Part shown: piece by piece, positions 15,201 to 36,173 of the stretch
Position numbering within the stretch: the stretch's first letter is position 1
Layout: each line of letters starts with the position of its first letter
Source of the DNA: a virus
Reading direction: 5' to 3' (one strand)
Virus genome (UHGV): UHGV-0391791
DNA length: 38,277 nucleotides
Position numbers and translations under genes: made by a program
Notes under the pieces: generated by a model
What the model was told of the DNA's origin: nothing
Databases searched by the model: none
The model's input: only the letters and a program-made list of their open reading frames with translations

Positions 15201-15277
15201 GTGGCATTAGCTCAGTTGGACAGAGCAACCGCCTTCTAAGCGGTTGGTCGCAGGTTCGAATCCTGCATGCCACGCCA
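15201..15277 (+). tRNA. tRNA-Arg, anticodon UCU (reads AGA), phage-encoded, argU-like
   Basis: Manual cloverleaf: 7-bp acceptor stem GTGGCAT/ATGCCAC, D-arm GCTC/GAGC, anticodon stem ACCGC/GCGGT with loop CTTCTAA, T-arm GCAGG-TTCGAAT-CCTGC, discriminator G plus encoded CCA; 77 nt. Confidence 0.85.
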
Positions 15278-23580: not shown

Positions 23581-24165
23581 ATGAAAAGTATCCAGGACGT
23601 CCGCAGGCAAAATCTCAACGACTTGATCGACCGTGAATTCAATGGTGTTCAGACGCGGATGGCAGAAAAACTTGGAACTCAGGCAAATCTGGTAAACCGC
23701 TGGGCTCTTGGCAAGAAGGTTATCGGCGACCAGGTTGCGCGAAAAATTGAAGCTGCCGCCAATAAACCCCGTAACTGGCTTGATATCGATCGCTCGCTTT
23801 CTCAGGAAGGTTTTCAGCCTGTCGGCCCAAGCGACATTGGTCAGCTGGCGGCTCACAACCTGGAACGCTGGATGAGCGAAAGCCGCGACCTTTCAACACA
23901 GGGAAAACTTCACCGCGCATCCGGCGTCGCCCAGGTGACAATCAGCCGCCTGTTAAACAATGAGGTCAGCGTTTCCATTTCCACCCTGGAGAATGTTGCA
24001 TCCGCATTCGGGCGTCACGGCTATGAATTACTGATTCACCCGCACGACCCTGCGACCATCAACTATGACCGCTCGCGCTACGCATTGTTACCCGAAACCG
24101 AGAAAGCAAAGATCGAAAGTTACATTGAATTTGTCATCAACCAGAACGAAAAAAACAAACAATAA
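23581..24165 (+). CDS. Phage repressor (194 aa) with two HTH-like segments and no recognisable LexA/S24-type autocleavage domain
   Basis: Track ORF; HTH-like segments MAEKLGTQANLVNRWALGKK and GVAQVTISRLLNNEVSVSISTLENVASAFG; no Ala-Gly/Ser...Lys peptidase module by eye. Confidence 0.6.
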   Translation: MKSIQDVRRQNLNDLIDREFNGVQTRMAEKLGTQANLVNRWALGKKVIGDQVARKIEAAANKPRNWLDIDRSLSQEGFQPVGPSDIGQLAAHNLERWMSESRDLSTQGKLHRASGVAQVTISRLLNNEVSVSISTLENVASAFGRHGYELLIHPHDPATINYDRSRYALLPETEKAKIESYIEFVINQNEKNKQ

Positions 24166-31503: not shown

Positions 31504-33966
31504 TCAATTCCCTGTTAATTGCAAAACTTGCTCTTCCAGCTTTTTAACCCTGCGTCTCATCATCGCAGATTCCAGAATCAGAGCCTCTTCATAACGGATA
31601 CCGTAACATTCACCAGCCTCGACGGCTTCGCGTACCAGAACCTTTGTCTGTATAAGTGGGTAAACTCCTGCAGAATGCTCTTCTTCCGTCACATCCCTGT
31701 ATTCTGCCGGGGTCTCATTCCACTTGTCATAACAGATAAATGCCAGTCGTGACACATCTATGCCTTCATTCTGAAATACACTGATAACATGCTGCGCAAC
31801 TGCACCAAAGTGCCATCTTGCTCCGTCTTTACCTTTCACTTCGATCCTGTCAAGGTACTGGTATGAAACCCATTCCACTCTTTCCCATGCGTCCAGTATT
31901 TTCTCATCAATAACCTCTGGAGCAGTCTTGAAACGCGCATCGGACAGCACCGTAAACGCTGACTGGGTAAATCCCCCCGACCATGCACGACCAGCCAACC
32001 CAAGAGAATAAGTATTCGTTGTCGATGGTGTCATGGCTGAATCAGAAAACTGTATATATTCTGAATTTCCAGTAGATATTCGAATATTTCCATTTATTAG
32101 CGACATAGTGCCTTTAGTATTATCACTATTGAATAATTTCAATTGCGAACTTATACCGCCTCCCACAGCCAGAGATACATCGCCTTCAGCAAGCATTCTG
32201 AATTTATCTGCAGAAACAAGCGTCTGGTTAGCAAGGTTAAAATATTTAACCCACCATTCAAAACGCCCTGACATAGTCCCAACGTACTGACCAAGCGCAG
32301 GGACGTGAACAACATTGCTATTTGTAGTGCCGTCTATACTGGAAATACCAGTCACCGCTGATGCAGAACTCAGAATATTATTTCTGTCACCCGGATGTTT
32401 AATTTCAACAAAGTTCCTGATACACCCTTCCTCGAAGGTAACCACGCCGGAAGAACTATACATGGGGAATATTGACGCATAATTACTGCGTGCAGCATCT
32501 AAGAAACGAATGGTTGTAGATGTCTGCAGATCTCCTGATTCATTTTTCCCATCACACCCAGTCATTAGAATATTACTGGCAATATTATTATTTCCCTGAA
32601 CGGTGACTCCGTGCGCCTGCTTTGCGTCCGATTCAGAGTAATCAACCAGCACATTCGAAATCAGGTTACCAGTCCCCTTGCCAACAACTACTGCGGCGTA
32701 TTTTGGGTTGTTAGCCATTACACTGCTAATGATATTATTCGTTGGGGCAGTTTCCGTCTCAGTTCCATTGTAAACAACGTGCTGACACTCTTCACCAATA
32801 ACATTGCTGACAATGTTATATTTTGCTGCTGTTTTAAGTTCCACTGCACCAAACTGAGGATAATTTCTGGCTATCACACCATCAATTAGCGTATTTTGCG
32901 ATGAATCAAAAAGCACACAACCTGCTTTTTTATTATTTGCGAACCCTAAATACTCTCCTCTTATATCTCTAACAATGTAACCTGACGGAATACCATTATT
33001 CGGATAAGCGATCAAGCTAAATCCTGTTCCTCGCGTATTTGTAAATCTGATATTTTTAACCGATACATCATGGCCACCTGAAAATGACACCTGGTGTCCC
33101 TGCACACTATCATCTGATTTATTTCCCATAATTGTTAGCGTACTAAGCATGCCACCATCGGGCATGTTAAAAACCAGATGATTACCATCTCTGTCATACT
33201 GTTTTATCGTTCCCCCACCTGTTCCGTACAAGCCACAACGTGAAAGAGAAACTAAAGATGTATTGAATACCCCTTCCGGAACAAAAACACTGCTAAACGA
33301 ATGTAATGATTTTGTAAAAGCATCCTTGTTATCATTTAAGATTCCATTTTGAGCTCCAAAATCCTTAATGCTGACACCATCACGCATCTTATCCTGGAAC
33401 GTTCTGTATACCGCTCCAGAACCATACTGAATAAACCAACCAAAACCACCAATAACTCCGGCGATTGCAGCATCGACATAATTACGCATTGAGCGATTAT
33501 TTACAGCGTCCTGCTCAAGTGATGGATCGGCAAGGTTAGATATTCTGTTTTGCTTTGCATCGTAATATTTTGCAAGCAAAGATGGTTTCATCAATGCACG
33601 TCTGAACCACCCAAAACATCGCTGGATCAGCATCGTCAGGTAGTCAAATGCATCCTCATGAACTTCGGGGAAAAATTTTCCCTGATTGCGAAGATCAGTC
33701 TCCTGCACCACATCAAGCACACGCTCTATCGTGATTCGCCAGCCAGCAGCAAGCGGCGACGGAAGAACCACTGCACCGCCACTATAAGTTCCCGCCCCTG
33801 TTACCGTATAACCAGCATCCAGCACTAGTTTTGTAACGTTACCGTTAAGGTCAGACACCTGAACAACCAGGTCGGATTTTTTGAAAATACGGAAGGTATA
33901 CGGAAATGATGTCGTAACGCCGTTACCTGTGTATTCGTTGTGGTCAACTTCGGTTGAGACCGTCAT
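31504..33966 (-). CDS. Tailspike / tail fibre (820 aa) with C-terminal intramolecular chaperone (peptidase S74-like) domain
   Basis: Track ORF; Asn/Gly/Ser-rich central region; C-terminal block ...SDARFKTAPEVIDEKILDAWERVEWVSYQYLD...GARWHFGAVAQHV typical of self-cleaving chaperone domains. Confidence 0.8.
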   Translation of the reverse strand: MTVSTEVDHNEYTGNGVTTSFPYTFRIFKKSDLVVQVSDLNGNVTKLVLDAGYTVTGAGTYSGGAVVLPSPLAAGWRITIERVLDVVQETDLRNQGKFFPEVHEDAFDYLTMLIQRCFGWFRRALMKPSLLAKYYDAKQNRISNLADPSLEQDAVNNRSMRNYVDAAIAGVIGGFGWFIQYGSGAVYRTFQDKMRDGVSIKDFGAQNGILNDNKDAFTKSLHSFSSVFVPEGVFNTSLVSLSRCGLYGTGGGTIKQYDRDGNHLVFNMPDGGMLSTLTIMGNKSDDSVQGHQVSFSGGHDVSVKNIRFTNTRGTGFSLIAYPNNGIPSGYIVRDIRGEYLGFANNKKAGCVLFDSSQNTLIDGVIARNYPQFGAVELKTAAKYNIVSNVIGEECQHVVYNGTETETAPTNNIISSVMANNPKYAAVVVGKGTGNLISNVLVDYSESDAKQAHGVTVQGNNNIASNILMTGCDGKNESGDLQTSTTIRFLDAARSNYASIFPMYSSSGVVTFEEGCIRNFVEIKHPGDRNNILSSASAVTGISSIDGTTNSNVVHVPALGQYVGTMSGRFEWWVKYFNLANQTLVSADKFRMLAEGDVSLAVGGGISSQLKLFNSDNTKGTMSLINGNIRISTGNSEYIQFSDSAMTPSTTNTYSLGLAGRAWSGGFTQSAFTVLSDARFKTAPEVIDEKILDAWERVEWVSYQYLDRIEVKGKDGARWHFGAVAQHVISVFQNEGIDVSRLAFICYDKWNETPAEYRDVTEEEHSAGVYPLIQTKVLVREAVEAGECYGIRYEEALILESAMMRRRVKKLEEQVLQLTGN

Positions 33967-34070
33967 GTTAAATCTCCAGATAGTCGCAGCACCCGTTGCG
34001 CCGCATATCTGGTTATTCTATTACCCAAAAAACCATATATGGATAGAAAGACTGTGAATATGAATAGATA

Positions 34071-34085
34071 TTACCTTTCAGGTAA
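34071..34085. promoter_or_regulatory. Operator site TTACCTTTCAGGTAA (identical to 14864..14878) in the tailspike / antirepressor divergent region
   Basis: Perfect dyad. Confidence 0.55.
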
Positions 34086-34122
34086 TTTGCAAAACGTGCT
34101 GGATAGCAAACAAATTATTTGC

Positions 34123-34142
34123 TACTGTATAAATATACAGTT
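34123..34142. promoter_or_regulatory. LexA (SOS) box TACTGTATAAATATACAGTT
   Basis: CTGT-N8-ACAG with AT-rich spacer, close match to the E. coli consensus TACTGTATATATATACAGTA; about 20 bp upstream of the first antirepressor-module ORF. Confidence 0.65.
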
Positions 34143-34162
34143 ATTGCATGGAGAAGATTAAG

Positions 34163-34420
34163 ATGCAGCAGTATCACTATCCACTGGAAGAGGGATTTAC
34201 CGAAAGGATTCACACGCCGGGAGGCGTCAGGTCACTGGTGGAGGGATCGCACTTGATGAAATTACTCCGGGATCTCGATAAGGATGGATTTAATGTCGAT
34301 GGCCCACTTGCCGAACTGACTGCACTGATTAACTACGTCACCAGCTCACAGATGTCTATGCAGGATCTGCAAACACATCTCGACTATTGTGCCGAACAAT
34401 TACGAAAACAAACCAGATAA
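34163..34420 (+). CDS. Small protein homologous to the C-terminal domain of the downstream antirepressor (about 85 aa from MQQYHYP); candidate SOS-induced antirepressor
   Basis: In-frame part of track ORF 34148..34420; SD GGAGAAG; IHTPGGVRSLVEGSHLMKLLRDLDKDGFNVDGPLAELTALINY aligns with [43 protein letters not shown] of 34738..35394. Confidence 0.5.
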   Translation: MQQYHYPLEEGFTERIHTPGGVRSLVEGSHLMKLLRDLDKDGFNVDGPLAELTALINYVTSSQMSMQDLQTHLDYCAEQLRKQTR

Positions 34421-34451
34421 GGTTTGAAATTACCAAATGGAGTGCTTATAT

Positions 34452-34466
34452 TTACCTTTGCGGTAA
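34452..34466. promoter_or_regulatory. Operator site TTACCTTTGCGGTAA in the loop of an inverted repeat GGAGTGC/GCACTCC (34439..34482)
   Basis: Perfect dyad; flanking 7-bp inverted repeat read directly. Confidence 0.5.
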
Positions 34467-34557
34467 ATTTACATCGCACTCCTCTTGTGCCATAGTAATC
34501 GGGCACTGGCAAAATCCAGTGCCGGGATTGGTCTCCCGGATTACTAAGTGGCGCATA

Positions 34558-34579
34558 CCACGCCAGACGTGGTTTTTTT
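34558..34579 (+). terminator. Terminator-like hairpin plus T7 run inside the leader between the two antirepressor-module genes
   Basis: CCACG-ccaga-CGTGG followed by TTTTTTT; preceded by overlapping alternative hairpins at 34501..34538. Confidence 0.45.
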
Positions 34580-34737
34580 ATGCGTATAGCACAGTCATGC
34601 CAGAATTATGGTGGGCTGAATGGGGGTCCGAAAGGACGCCGGTACCACTTAGGCCGGTAAGACCAACTCCGTTCAGTTCACCACCATCTGATTGGTCTCA
34701 GCGGTGGTGATGTAATTCGCTAAGTGGAGACGCCATC

Positions 34738-35394
34738 ATGAACGCTCAACTCATCCCCGTATTCAACGGCACTATATCTAACGAAACAGCCCTACTTTGT
34801 AATGCCCGCGATCTGCACGCTTTTTTAGGTGTTAAAAAGGTGTTTGCAGCATGGATTACAAATCGCATATCAGAATACGAATTCATTGAAAATCAAGACT
34901 ATATTTTGCTTTCCAATTTGGGAAAGCAAACATCTGGTAGAGGCGGCCACAACCGCAAAGAGTACCACCTCACCCTTGATACAGCCAAAGAGCTGGCGAT
35001 GGTCGAGCGTAACGAAAAAGGTCGCCAGGTGCGACGCTACTTCATTGAATGCGAGAAACGTTTAAGACAACAAGAAACAAAAGTGGAGAAGGTCTTGTCA
35101 GGCTTCATGCCCGCCATTATGGAGGCGATCAAGCTGGAAGACAAAAAAGAATACAGTGCCCCACTGAAGCCCGGCTACCGCAGCCTGATTCACTCGCCGT
35201 CTGGTGTTCTCGGCCTGACGGAGAACTCACTGCTGATGAATCTGCTGAACCAGTTACAGGACGACGGGCACGACGTATCGGGCGCGGCGGCGGAGCTGAC
35301 CACCATGTTCTGCTACATCGTTGGTGTGAGCAAATGCCTGCGTGATATCCAGACGCACGCGGAGTACATCAACGACAAGGCAGGGTTCTTCTGA
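34738..35394 (+). CDS. Antirepressor (218 aa), AntA/AntB-type N-terminal domain plus C-terminal domain shared with 34163..34420
   Basis: Track ORF; N-terminal segment ...[30 protein letters not shown]...[42 protein letters not shown] recalled as antirepressor-type; SD GGAGA. Confidence 0.65.
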
Positions 35395-35466
35395 CGGGCG
35401 GCGGCACAGGGATGTGCCTTTAAATAATTCTGTACAGATTGCAGACTGGGGGTGAATAGCGTACTA

Positions 35467-35481
35467 TTACCTCAAGGGTAA
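35467..35481. promoter_or_regulatory. Operator site TTACCTCAAGGGTAA upstream of the 35541 gene
   Basis: Perfect dyad about 60 bp upstream of the start codon. Confidence 0.55.
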
Positions 35482-35540
35482 GAAAGCATTTTTAATCTTC
35501 CCTTCAAAACGCGTCCTGTAGCCAAACATGGGAGGACGAA

Positions 35541-36173
35541 ATGAGAACAAATACAACAAGAAAAGCGATGCCATACATTATCCCAGAAGCAGATTTCGAT
35601 AGAAAACTGAACATGTCTGAGAAGAACACTAGTCACACCGAAAGCTACTTAGCGAAAGGTGTGGTTGATTTCGTTCTTCCGGGATTCACAACACCTTATG
35701 GTTATCGCCTTGTAAAATCTTGTAATGGCGATCATTACAGAATGATTACTACCAGCGATACTCCAGAAACGGTGTATGCGGTTAAGTTAATCTTTCGGGA
35801 AGATATCGTCGAAGCCAAAAGAACATGTACGCAGATCATGGTATGGCGTACGCCTAATGTTATTCATGACCGTGCTGTTCATGGTTTGCCTCAGATTTTT
35901 TTTCAGTTCTTCCTAGAGCAATATGCGATCGTTGTATCTGATGAGCAACAAACAATCGATGGGAGAAGATTCTGGGAAAGAATGATTTCTTGGGCTATAA
36001 ACACCCCAGGATATAATGTATACGTTTCAGATGGCTCTGAAGAAGATAGACCTCTTAGCTTCATGACATCATGGGATGATTTCTATAGCCAGTGGGCTGA
36101 TTTCTGTTGGGGCAGTGATAAAGATGTGCATACCCACAGACTACTGGTTATAAGCAAAGATAAACTGCATTAA
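35541..36173 (+). CDS. Orphan hypothetical protein (210 aa), moron with its own operator and terminator
   Basis: Track ORF; strong SD GGAGGA 5 nt upstream; no motif recognised; surrounding DNA is AT-rich by eye. Confidence 0.5.
   Translation: MRTNTTRKAMPYIIPEADFDRKLNMSEKNTSHTESYLAKGVVDFVLPGFTTPYGYRLVKSCNGDHYRMITTSDTPETVYAVKLIFREDIVEAKRTCTQIMVWRTPNVIHDRAVHGLPQIFFQFFLEQYAIVVSDEQQTIDGRRFWERMISWAINTPGYNVYVSDGSEEDRPLSFMTSWDDFYSQWADFCWGSDKDVHTHRLLVISKDKLH

What the first reader, a model, noticed from the sequence alone, without database searches (positions are those of the whole stretch)
34430..34737. Highly structured 300-bp leader with mutually exclusive hairpins between the two antirepressor-module genes
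Between the small gene and the antirepressor lies a non-coding stretch packed with dyads: an inverted repeat GGAGTGC/GCACTCC enclosing an operator site, two hairpins sharing the segment CCGGG (GGGCACTGG-caaaat-CCAGTGCCGGG versus CCGGGA-ttggtc-TCCCGG), a terminator-like CCACG/CGTGG stem plus T7 run, a GNRA-capped stem GTCC-gaaa-GGAC, and a possible pairing GGTCTC/GAGAC that would occlude the antirepressor SD (GGAGA at 34726). Alternative overlapping stems ahead of a terminator are the signature of an attenuator or riboregulator. It could gate read-through from the LexA-controlled promoter into the antirepressor gene, or encode a small RNA.
Basis: seen in the sequence. Interest (0 to 1): 0.5.

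Follow-up and report, generated by a model that had tools for sequence, protein, structure and literature searches.

The report
IsrK and C4 antisense-RNA switch guarding antirepressor
The "structured leader" is a known phage immunity cassette with its own promoter: a small terminated RNA (IsrK), then a C4 antisense RNA whose two exposed segments pair with the ribosome-binding region of the antirepressor gene. It is an ordinary new example of a system first described in phages P1 and Gifsy-1.

Summary
It is not an attenuator with mutually exclusive hairpins. Rfam places two curated RNA families here above their gathering scores: isrK (34503-34579, 67.7 bits) and C4 antisense RNA (34604-34688, 61.2 bits).

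The layout copies the P1 immI operon.
- A repressor operator and promoter lie just upstream of isrK.
- IsrK carries sites a1 (TTGGTCT) and b1 (CTAAGTGG) and ends in a terminator.
- C4 exposes a' (AGACCAA) and b' (CCACTTAG).
- The same two words recur downstream as a2 and b2, and b2 overlaps the ant Shine-Dalgarno sequence.
- Neither b-word nor the 9-mer ATTGGTCTC around the a sites occurs anywhere else on the + strand of the 38-kb window.

Across 95 related modules the C4 loops co-vary with their own flanking sites. Two-site complementarity averages 15.2 and 13.7 nt for own partners against 4.4 and 6.4 nt for swapped partners. The modules show 61 distinct a/b combinations.

Most likely C4 blocks ant translation, and IsrK, in cis or in trans, competes for C4, as shown experimentally for Gifsy-1.

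Differences from the models: C4 targets the ant ribosome-binding site directly, with no icd or orf45 relay ORF, and a LexA-controlled small gene lies upstream.

Verdict: a new member of a known kind, of low interest.

The parts
34123..34142 (+). LexA-box-like site TACTGTATAAATATACAGTT, just upstream of the 90-aa ORF
   Evidence: It is the only CTGT-N8-ACAG site with an AT-rich core in this region. It is conserved in phiV10, HEMP4, ZX5 and Tyrion.
34148..34420 (+). 90-aa ORF, a stand-alone homologue of the Ant C-terminal domain (context, not part of the RNA module)
   Evidence: It matches phrog_450 at 3.5e-48, as do Ant residues 135-216. It is 42% identical to Ant residues 128-210 by BLASTP.
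34424..34452 (+). Upstream promoter-like site TTGAAA-17-TATATT. Its -10 hexamer and predicted start lie under the operator, so it may correspond to P1's C1-controlled P2c4.
   Evidence: Consensus scan, 10 of 12 matches. The comparison with P1 rests on the P1 annotation. This is inference.
34439..34482 (.). DNA inverted repeat GGAGTGC...GCACTCC enclosing the operator TTACC-TTTGC-GGTAA (34452-34466)
   Evidence: TTACC-N5-GGTAA occurs 14 times in the window against 0.52 expected. The half-sites are conserved while the 5-bp spacer varies in relatives. In phiV10 the arms are a perfect 18-bp palindrome.
34468..34496 (+). Promoter of isrK (TTTACA-17-CATAGT, with TG before the -10 hexamer); predicted start at about 34503
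   Evidence: Promoter scan. A good promoter ends about 7 nt before the first hairpin in Gifsy-1, P1, APSE-7 and yong2 as well. P1's P1c4 is annotated at the same relative position.
34503..34579 (+). IsrK-family small RNA: hairpin 1 (34503-09/34516-22); hairpin 2 (34523-27/34534-38) with a1 in its loop; b1; intrinsic terminator (34558-62/34568-72 plus U7)
   Evidence: Rfam RF01394, 67.7 bits against a gathering score of 50, full length. Across 63 sequences hairpin 1 is 88% paired with 6 of 7 pairs changed on both sides, and hairpin 2 is 90% paired. Terminator scan.
34528..34534 (+). a1 site TTGGTCT, complementary to C4 a'
   Evidence: The a1-a' helix is 97.7% paired across 63 sequences, and 6 of 7 pairs change on both sides. 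The 9-mer ATTGGTCTC occurs only here and at a2 in 38 kb.
34544..34551 (+). b1 site CTAAGTGG, complementary to the C4 b' loop
   Evidence: The word occurs only at 34544 and 34720 on the + strand, and its complement only at 34645. Own-versus-swapped complementarity test.
34552..34584 (+). Outer helix CGCATA/TATGCG bracketing the terminator hairpin; it can form only in read-through RNA
   Evidence: 72% paired, with 3 of 5 pairs changed on both sides. Anchored test: own pairing 4.6 nt against 2.7 nt for swapped partners. Moderate support.
34604..34688 (+). C4-family antisense RNA: 17-bp closing stem (34609-25/34667-83), GAAA-capped hairpin (34626-37), b' hairpin (34638-42/34654-58), and a 3' ACCA-like tail
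   Evidence: Rfam RF01695, 61.2 bits against a gathering score of 45, full length. It folds alone into the consensus structure at -41.2 kcal/mol, z = -5.5. The closing stem is 99.5% paired, with 8 pairs changed on both sides.
34645..34652 (+). b' (CCACTTAG) in the 11-nt hairpin loop of C4
   Evidence: It is the exact complement of b1 and b2. Duplex energy is -12.4 to -12.6 kcal/mol.
34660..34666 (+). a' (AGACCAA) in the single-stranded junction of C4
   Evidence: It is the exact complement of a1 and a2. Duplex energy is -9.2 kcal/mol. It covaries with both sites.
34692..34698 (+). a2 site TTGGTCT in the ant leader
   Evidence: The a'-a2 helix is 86.8% paired, and 5 of 5 aligned pairs change on both sides.
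34703..34710 (+). Conserved GGTGGTGA box, the exact complement of the C4 3' strand TCACCACC (34678-85); function unknown
   Evidence: The columns are nearly invariant in the 63-sequence alignment. Word positions are given.
34720..34729 (+). b2 site CTAAGTGG (34720-27) overlapping the ant Shine-Dalgarno GGAG (34726-29)
   Evidence: Word positions. In most of 91 modules the b2 word abuts or overlaps a GGAG/GAGG about 7-12 nt before the ATG, and the a2-b2 gap is usually 20-27 nt (21 here, 22 in P1).
34738..35394 (+). ant, 218 aa: AntA-domain antirepressor, the regulated gene
   Evidence: Pfam AntA at 4.2e-26. phrog_377 'anti-repressor Ant' at 2.8e-66.

Best explanation
The region is a P1-immI-type antisense-RNA immunity cassette, consisting of isrK (the a1/b1 element), C4 and the a2/b2 target sites, placed in front of an AntA antirepressor gene in a phiV10/epsilon15-like (Uetakevirus) prophage.

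Shown by sequence:
- A promoter with an adjacent phage-repressor operator starts transcription at 34503.
- The first 77 nt form IsrK, which ends at an intrinsic terminator and displays the words a1 and b1.
- RNA that reads through contains the C4 fold. C4 exposes b' in a hairpin loop and a' in a single-stranded junction.
- The ant leader repeats the same words as a2 and b2, and b2 covers the Shine-Dalgarno sequence.

Inferred from P1 and Gifsy-1 experiments:
- C4 is cut out of the read-through transcript (by RNase P in P1). It pairs with a2 and b2 and so blocks 30S binding to ant. Loss of translation then probably reduces ant transcription through polarity.
- IsrK carries targets as good as the real ones. 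It competes for a'/b', in cis within the precursor and in trans as the short RNA.
- The IsrK:C4 ratio, the frequency of terminator read-through and repressor occupancy of the operator would therefore decide whether Ant is made and the prophage repressor is inactivated.
- The a/b word pair sets which phages can repress each other's ant, that is, heteroimmunity.
For: - Both Rfam families match above their gathering scores and at full length. The same isrK-then-C4 order is found in 11 relatives and in Gifsy-1, and P1 has C4 plus the c4-a1b1 element.
- The element order matches the annotated P1 locus: operator, tandem promoters, a1, b1, c4, a2, b2, start codon. The a2-b2 spacing is nearly the same, 21 nt here and 22 nt in P1.
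- In the window a', a1 and a2 are mutually exact, as are b', b1 and b2. These words are unique in 38 kb. Fewer than 1e-5 of shuffled flanks carry both words in the right order.
- In 95 modules, a C4 core paired with its own flanks gives 15.2 nt (downstream) and 13.7 nt (upstream) of two-site complementarity. Swapped partners give 4.4 and 6.4 nt. There are 61 distinct a/b combinations.
- Formal pair counts on 63 sequences beat all 500 shuffles and all slid controls. a1-a' is 97.7% paired and a'-a2 is 86.8% paired.
- The read-through RNA has two near-isoenergetic folds. The MFE fold (-99.7 kcal/mol) pairs a1/b1 with a'/b' in cis. The canonical IsrK plus C4 fold is -97.4 kcal/mol. This mirrors structures A and B of Gifsy-1 (PMC4825925).
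- In Gifsy-1 the activating mutations G28A and G31A fall in a1, and their compensating partners C162U and C159U fall in a' (my numbering of the sequence).
- Experimental precedent: IsrK expressed in trans raises anrP translation more than 100-fold. In P1, c4 RNA represses Ant synthesis (P1 annotation; PMC8546580).
Against: - No transcript, processing or binding data exist for this phage.
- Promoter, start site and read-through are predictions.
- The window's C4 has a 4-bp rather than 5-bp GAAA hairpin and scores lowest among the relatives (61 bits against 66-81 bits).
- The window has no ORF over C4: the two AUGs in C4 hit stops after 3 and 10 codons. The translational-coupling step shown for Gifsy-1 orf45 and for P1 icd therefore cannot apply, and direct ribosome-binding-site occlusion is assumed instead.
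- MAFFT aligns the b loops poorly, so the column-based figures for b'-b2 and b1-b' are only 40-64% paired. Support for the b sites comes from the alignment-free test.
- Whether IsrK acts mainly as a decoy for free C4 or by refolding the long mRNA cannot be told from sequence.
Confidence: 0.8

Rival explanations
1. Strict Gifsy-1 model. No free C4 repressor is needed. The read-through isrK-C4-ant mRNA folds on itself into a translationally silent form, with a1/b1 paired to a'/b' and the downstream leader closed. The only trans-acting RNA is short IsrK, which invades this fold and opens the ribosome-binding site.
For: The MFE fold of 34503-34750 has exactly this cis pairing. The two folds differ by only 2.3 kcal/mol. 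The experiments in PMC4825925 were interpreted this way.
Against: In the cis-paired fold a2 and b2 are not held by C4, so silencing of the ant ribosome-binding site would depend on a local hairpin. That hairpin is neither significant (z = -1.4) nor conserved. The strict co-variation of a2/b2 with a'/b' is unexplained unless C4 pairs with them. The orf45 relay that this model uses is absent here. In Gifsy-1 a stable processed STnc1160 species exists, and P1 C4 acts in trans (own knowledge: Citron and Schuster 1990).
Confidence: 0.3
2. P4-type immunity. The C4-like RNA, like P4 CI RNA pairing with seqA and seqC, causes premature transcription termination rather than a translational block.
For: C4 and its a1/b1 target element share one Rfam clan. 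The Gifsy-1 authors call IsrK a structural homologue of P4 SeqA and liken STnc1160 to CI RNA. IsrK in trans also raised the transcriptional fusion 8-fold.
Against: b2 overlaps the Shine-Dalgarno sequence here and in most modules, which points to a translational target. No terminator-like site lies between C4 and ant on the + strand. The translational fusion responded 139-fold against 8-fold for the transcriptional one. In P1 the transcriptional effect is secondary to the translational block (own knowledge: Biere et al. 1992).
Confidence: 0.12
3. One reading: a cis-acting attenuator in a leader transcribed from the LexA promoter. Mutually exclusive hairpins sharing CCGGG decide whether the T7 terminator forms.
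For: A terminator does lie between the two genes. No + strand terminator separates the LexA-box gene from it, so read-in is possible.
Against: The two hairpins are adjacent, coexist in the consensus and the MFE fold, and both covary. Nothing pairs with the terminator's 5' strand as an antiterminator. The element has its own conserved promoter. It also persists in relatives that lack the LexA-box gene, namely TL-2011b and the Klebsiella phages.
Confidence: 0.03

Closest known systems
Phage P1/P7 immI operon (Oc4, P2c4/P1c4, a1, b1, c4 RNA, a2, b2, icd, ant1/2)
   Same: Same order of elements. Same C4 fold (Rfam RF01695 hits both). Two-site antisense recognition with b in the hairpin loop and a in the junction. 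Duplicated target words up- and downstream. b2 lies at the ribosome-binding site. A repressor operator sits at the promoter. An antirepressor is the final output. The a2-b2 spacing is 21 nt here and 22 nt in P1.
   Different: C4 here targets the ant ribosome-binding site itself, whereas P1 targets icd, to which ant is translationally coupled. The upstream a1/b1 element here is a discrete terminated sRNA of the isrK family, while P1 matches only the c4-a1b1 model. The antirepressor is an AntA-domain protein unrelated in its N-terminus. The host phage is a podovirus-type Uetakevirus prophage rather than a plasmid prophage. P1 is too diverged to be found by blastn.
Salmonella Gifsy-1 isrK-orf45(STnc1160)-anrP locus (Hershko-Shalev et al. 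2016, PMC4825925)
   Same: Same two Rfam families in the same order before an antirepressor gene. Short terminated IsrK plus a read-through mRNA. Near-isoenergetic alternative folds in which a1/b1 pair with a'/b'.
   Different: No orf45: the reading frame over C4 is closed by stops in the window, so the coupling step is missing. The a/b words differ (Gifsy-1 TTGGCGT and TCACCG). AnrP has an ORF6N domain and this Ant an AntA domain. The neighbours differ: antQ upstream in Gifsy-1, a LexA-box mini-Ant gene and the tailspike here.
APSE phages of Hamiltonella (isrK + c4 + BRO gene; PMC7313666; annotated in LR794147)
   Same: The identical cassette, already annotated as isrK sRNA, C4 sRNA and a'/b' regions upstream of an antirepressor-like BRO gene.
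   Different: Different a/b words (TTGAGAC and CTAACAAGG) and a different downstream domain (Bro-N).
Satellite phage P4 CI RNA with seqA/seqB/seqC
   Same: A processed small RNA lies between two copies of its target sequence. The Gifsy-1 authors regard IsrK as a structural homologue of P4 SeqA and liken STnc1160 to CI RNA.
   Different: P4 acts by premature transcription termination on the replication operon, not at the ribosome-binding site of an antirepressor (own knowledge). P4 was not examined with tools here.
Phage P22 immI sar RNA/ant
   Same: A small RNA limits antirepressor translation in a secondary immunity region next to the tailspike gene.
   Different: sar is a true cis-antisense transcript from the opposite strand and has no C4 fold (own knowledge). 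Nothing of that kind is seen here: both RNAs are on the sense strand.

Membership tests
C4 antisense RNA (Rfam RF01695) | Covariance-model score at or above the curated gathering score, full-length match | tested here: met
   61.2 bits against 45, model positions 1-87 of 87, at 34604-34688 on the + strand
C4 antisense RNA (Rfam RF01695) | Long closing stem enclosing a tetraloop hairpin and a second hairpin with a large loop, supported by covariation | tested here: met
   It folds alone into this shape (z = -5.5). The closing stem is 99.5% paired with 8 compensatory pairs, and the b' hairpin stem is 98.4% paired.
C4 antisense RNA (Rfam RF01695) | Two unpaired segments (a', b') complementary to two sites (a2, b2) in the downstream mRNA, with b2 at the ribosome-binding site | tested here: met
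   Exact 7-nt and 8-nt complements at 34692-98 and 34720-27. b2 overlaps GGAG at 34726-29. Co-variation across 95 modules.
C4 antisense RNA (Rfam RF01695) | Processed from a longer precursor (RNase P) to a stable RNA of about 77 nt that represses ant in trans | not testable with these tools
   This needs Northern blots, an RNase P mutant or reporter assays. Only the ACCA-like tail after the stem (34683-86) is visible in the sequence.
isrK sRNA (Rfam RF01394) | Covariance-model score at or above the gathering score, full length | tested here: met
   67.7 bits against 50, model positions 1-77 of 77, at 34503-34579
isrK sRNA (Rfam RF01394) | Own promoter and Rho-independent terminator that give a short RNA, with a C4/STnc1160 element and an antirepressor gene downstream | tested here: met
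   Promoter-like site at 34468-96 and terminator at 34557-73 plus a T run. C4 begins 24 nt downstream, and ant starts at 34738. These are predictions, not transcript data.
isrK sRNA (Rfam RF01394) | Activation of the antirepressor through translation of an upstream ORF (orf45) coupled to it | tested here: not met
   ORFs starting at the AUGs in C4 stop after 3 and 10 codons. Only 12 of about 83 modules have a coupled-type ORF.
isrK sRNA (Rfam RF01394) | Hfq binding | not testable with these tools
   No binding data. Only the terminator U-tail is visible.
c4-a1b1 motif (Rfam RF03163) | Covariance-model score at or above the gathering score | tested here: not met
   39.9 bits against 46.7 (E = 8.6e-9) at 34490-34542. 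It describes the same two hairpins as isrK. P1 and Gifsy-1 pass.
Transcription attenuator (terminator/antiterminator leader) | Mutually exclusive stems, one of which overlaps the terminator | tested here: not met
   Hairpins 1 and 2 and the terminator coexist in the consensus and the MFE fold. No alternative partner for the terminator strand was found.
P1-type immI operon | Primary-repressor operator at the promoter of the c4 operon | tested here: inconclusive
   The TTACC-N5-GGTAA palindrome abuts the -35 hexamer, and the motif is enriched 14 against 0.5 across the phage. The binding protein is not identified.

The most novel reading that the evidence does not exclude
SOS induction may be wired into the antisense switch at the RNA level. 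No + strand terminator separates the LexA-box promoter (34123-42) from isrK. LexA cleavage would therefore send extra transcripts through a1/b1 and, by read-through, through a2/b2. These would out-titrate the fixed pool of C4 and release Ant translation. At the same time the LexA-controlled 90-aa protein, a free-standing copy of the Ant C-terminal domain, would be made. The cassette would then combine DNA damage, repressor occupancy of the operator and RNA stoichiometry into one induction decision. That coupling has not been described for P1, P4 or Gifsy-1.
Probability: 0.2. Interest if true: 0.5.

Novelty: new member of a known kind. Interest (0 to 1): 0.2.

Why it matters
- Annotation. This 300-bp stretch, and its counterparts in 467 of 5426 complete E. 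coli genomes, is not blank intergenic DNA and not an 'Ash family' or 'immunity region' ORF. It holds two RNA genes and their targets.
- Biology. It shows that epsilon15/phiV10-like prophages use a P1-style secondary immunity layer on their antirepressor. The a/b word pair predicts which co-resident or superinfecting relatives are cross-immune.
- Mechanism. This natural variant lacks the relay ORF. That argues that direct occlusion of the ribosome-binding site by C4 is sufficient and that orf45/icd coupling is an add-on.

None of this changes the picture of the family.

Tried and rejected
- RNAcofold and duplexfold of whole C4 against IsrK or the ant leader were uninformative. These programs cannot model loop-loop (kissing) contacts that keep the intramolecular stems. 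I used short-duplex energies instead.
- Column-based pair counting for the b sites is weakened because MAFFT misaligns the variable-length b' loop and the b words (40-64% paired). It was replaced by an alignment-free own-versus-swapped test.
- My first regex parse of the b' hairpin mis-called several loops and was dropped in favour of using the whole C4 core.
- blastn in distant mode did not reach P1, so I fetched P1 and Gifsy-1 by accession.
- The original P1 papers (PMC312442, PMC196329) are not held. Statements about RNase P processing and polarity rest on my own knowledge.
- The local hairpin pairing a2 (GGTCTC) with the Shine-Dalgarno region (GAGAC) was considered as a cis-silencer and rejected as not conserved.
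- Coding explanations were rejected. The 107-aa TTG ORF at 34387-34710 and the 26-aa ORF at 34580-34660 cross the RNA elements and have no support. No tRNA lies in the region.
Full report
**Observation.** I read 33600-35800 and listed the ORFs. The stretch 34421-34737 lies between a 90-aa ORF (34148-34420) and a 218-aa ORF (34738-35394), both on the + strand. A consensus scan finds an intrinsic-terminator-like site at 34557-34573 followed by T7, and two sigma-70-like promoters at 34424-34452 and 34468-34496. As RNA, 34503-34750 folds at -99.7 kcal/mol against -76.6 +/- 5.2 for dinucleotide shuffles (z = -4.5). The region is therefore structured beyond chance.

**Identity.** A scan of the whole window against Rfam at gathering thresholds gives three hits. 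One is a tRNA elsewhere. The other two fall inside the finding: isrK (RF01394) at 34503-34579 with 67.7 bits against a cut-off of 50, and C4 antisense RNA (RF01695) at 34604-34688 with 61.2 bits against 45. Both are full length and on the + strand. A permissive rescan adds a sub-threshold hit to c4-a1b1 (RF03163, 'a1, b1 targets of C4 antisense RNA') at 34490-34542, with 39.9 bits against 46.7.
- The 'two hairpins sharing CCGGG' are hairpins 1 and 2 of isrK.
- The 'terminator-like stem plus T7' is the isrK terminator.
- The 'GNRA-capped stem' is the first hairpin of C4.

**Context.**
- The window is a phiV10/epsilon15-like (Uetakevirus) phage. It is 98.5% identical over 1.4 kb to Escherichia phage phiv142-3, and the 316-bp region is 100% identical.
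- The downstream protein has an AntA antirepressor domain (Pfam 4.2e-26; phrog_377 'anti-repressor Ant').
- The same module is present in 467 of 5426 complete E. coli genomes. Only the Ant CDS is annotated under the listed matches.

**Anatomy compared with P1.** The P1 record annotates the following order: operator Oc4, promoters P2c4 and P1c4, a1, b1, c4 RNA, a2, b2, then icd and ant. Reading the P1 sequence shows that b' is the loop of the second C4 hairpin and a' is the single strand after it. The window has the same design.

| Element | Sequence | Position |
|---|---|---|
| b' | CCACTTAG | 34645-52 |
| a' | AGACCAA | 34660-66 |
| a1 | TTGGTCT | 34528-34, in the loop of isrK hairpin 2 |
| b1 | CTAAGTGG | 34544-51 |
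| a2 | TTGGTCT | 34692-98 |
| b2 | CTAAGTGG | 34720-27 |

- b2 overlaps the Shine-Dalgarno GGAG (34726-29), which ends 8 nt before the ATG.
- The a2-b2 gap is 21 nt here and 22 nt in P1.
- CTAAGTGG occurs on the + strand only at b1 and b2, and its complement only at b'. The 9-mer ATTGGTCTC occurs only at a1 and a2.
- Fewer than 1e-5 of shuffled flanks contain both words in the right order.

**Relatives and covariation.**
- Rfam finds isrK followed by C4 in all 11 related phage loci I fetched and in Gifsy-1. P1 has C4 plus c4-a1b1.
- Laying the loci side by side shows the a and b words changing together in C4 and in both flanks. phiV10 has TTGGCGT/CTAAAAGG, APSE-7 has TTGAGAC/CTAACAAGG, and Ayreon has TTGGCGT/GCATACGG.
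- A pattern scan of IMG/VR gave 120 more stretches, from which I extracted 95 usable modules.
- The C4 core against its own flanks shows two ordered complementary sites summing to 15.2 nt downstream and 13.7 nt upstream on average. C4 cores from other modules give 4.4 and 6.4 nt.
- Ninety-one modules carry 18 a2 words, 47 b2 words and 61 combinations. The b2 word usually abuts or overlaps a GGAG/GAGG just before the ATG.
- The window's pair is a mosaic. Its a word is shared with Tyrion and the Klebsiella phages, and its b word with HEMP4. The combination is seen only in the window and an identical IMG/VR contig.

**Formal pair counts.** On a 63-sequence alignment the structure beats all 500 shuffles and all slid controls.

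| Helix | Cells paired | Pairs changed on both sides |
|---|---|---|
| isrK hairpin 1 | 88% | 6 of 7 |
| isrK hairpin 2 | 90% | 2 of 5 |
| C4 closing stem | 99.5% | 8 of 17 |
| a'-a2 | 86.8% | 5 of 5 |
| a1-a' | 97.7% | 6 of 7 |

Column-based values for the b sites are lower (40-64%) because the variable loop aligns badly. What covaries is the Rfam structure and the antisense contacts, not the proposed competing hairpins.

- Hairpins 1 and 2 are adjacent and coexist. Nothing competes with the terminator.
- The GGAGTGC/GCACTCC dyad lies upstream of the RNA start and encloses TTACC-TTTGC-GGTAA. That motif occurs 14 times in the window against 0.52 expected. Paired sites flank ORF 23581-24165, and single sites lie before the LexA-box gene, before isrK and before the next gene. 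The half-sites are conserved and the spacer varies in relatives. It is a dispersed repressor operator, the counterpart of P1 Oc4.
- The promoter TTTACA-17-CATAGT ends 7 nt before hairpin 1. A good promoter sits at the same place in Gifsy-1, P1, APSE-7 and yong2. The module therefore has its own promoter.
- The module is also present in relatives without the LexA-box gene.
- The GGTCTC/GAGAC pairing appears in a local MFE fold that is not significant (z = -1.4). It is absent from relatives with the same a2 word.

**Mechanism.**

Shown experimentally elsewhere:
- In P1, c4 RNA represses Ant synthesis through a2/b2 (annotation; PMC8546580; Citron and Schuster 1990 from my own knowledge).
- In Gifsy-1 the isrK promoter yields short IsrK plus a silent read-through isrK-orf45-anrP mRNA. 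IsrK in trans raises anrP translation by more than 100-fold.
- Numbering the Gifsy-1 sequence places the activating mutations G28A and G31A inside a1, and their compensating partners C162U and C159U inside a'. The published 'helix b-I' is therefore the a1:a' contact. The authors themselves liken IsrK to P4 SeqA and STnc1160 to P4 CI RNA.

Shown here by computation:
- The window's read-through RNA has two nearly isoenergetic states. The MFE fold pairs a1/b1 with a'/b' in cis (-99.7 kcal/mol). The canonical IsrK plus C4 fold is -97.4 kcal/mol. This parallels the published structures A and B.

Inferred for this phage:
- C4, cut from the read-through RNA, binds a2 and b2 and blocks the ant ribosome-binding site.
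- IsrK, in cis or in trans, competes for a'/b' with equally good sites.
- Promoter activity, repressor occupancy and terminator read-through set the balance.

**Differences from the models.**
- The AUGs inside C4 run into stops after 3 and 10 codons, so there is no orf45/icd-type relay ORF. Across modules such an ORF is inconsistent: 12 are coupled-type and 22 stop within 30 codons. Database ORFs called 'Ash family protein' or 'immunity region' lie over these RNAs.
- The antirepressor N-domain varies between modules: AntA here, Bro-N in phiV10, ORF6N in Gifsy-1 AnrP, and Rha, P22_AR_N and 77-aa proteins elsewhere. The RNA cassette is a portable front end.
- Upstream lies a strong LexA box (TACTGTATAAATATACAGTT), conserved in relatives, in front of a 90-aa protein that is 42% identical to Ant residues 128-210.

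**Prior knowledge and novelty.** Both motifs were catalogued in 2010 (PMC2864571). The isrK, c4 and BRO arrangement is already annotated in APSE phages. The Gifsy-1 locus has been dissected experimentally. This is therefore a new, unannotated member of a known kind. The variant features are direct targeting of the ant ribosome-binding site, the LexA-gene neighbour and a particular a/b word pair. Interest is low (0.2).

**Most novel reading not excluded.** SOS-driven read-in from the LexA promoter may titrate C4 and so couple DNA damage to Ant release. I put its probability at about 0.2.

Noticed in passing
window 14864, 18012/18030, 21118/21180, 23463/23511, 24223/24285, 29367, 33839, 34071, 34452, 35467: The palindrome TTACC-N5-GGTAA occurs 14 times against 0.5 expected. 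Sites often come in pairs. Two pairs flank ORF 23581-24165 (194 aa, a repressor candidate), and single sites lie in front of several + strand genes. It looks like a dispersed operator regulon of the kind P1 C1 uses.
   Followed up: partly
window 34123-34420: A near-consensus LexA box precedes a 90-aa ORF that is a free-standing copy of the Ant C-terminal domain. It is 42% identical to Ant residues 128-210, and both match phrog_450. Box and gene are conserved in phiV10, HEMP4, ZX5 and Tyrion. It may be a mini-antirepressor under SOS control.
   Followed up: partly
window 34703-34710 (and 34678-34685): A nearly invariant GGTGGTGA box lies between a2 and b2. It is the exact complement of the C4 3' strand TCACCACC and resembles the C4 5' strand. 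It could compete for the C4 closing stem in unprocessed RNA or pair with the start-codon region. Its function is unknown.
   Followed up: partly
window 34552-34557 with 34579-34584: The helix CGCATA/TATGCG brackets the isrK terminator and can form only in read-through RNA. It covaries in relatives (GCGACA/TTGTCG, GCGTAC/GTACGC, CACAT/ATGTG) with moderate statistical support.
   Followed up: partly
L053 9640-11213 (IMGVR_UViG_2671181028_000005): Three tandem isrK-C4-gene modules sit at 656-bp spacing. The 120-aa proteins are nearly identical, but each C4 and its targets use a different a/b word pair.
   Followed up: partly
L005 686-799, L010 288-971, L003 470-1306: Deposited CDS features named 'ash family protein', 'Ash family protein' and 'immunity region' lie directly over the isrK and C4 RNA genes. 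They are probably ORF calls on RNA genes.
   Followed up: no
window 31504-33966 (- strand): An 820-aa tailspike-like ORF ends (its 5' end) about 150 bp from the LexA-box gene. The secondary immunity region therefore sits next to the tail fibre gene, as immI does in P22. phiV10 annotates its counterpart as a putative tail fiber.
   Followed up: no
window 15201-15277: A tRNA-Arg (anticodon TCT) gene lies inside the phage.
   Followed up: no
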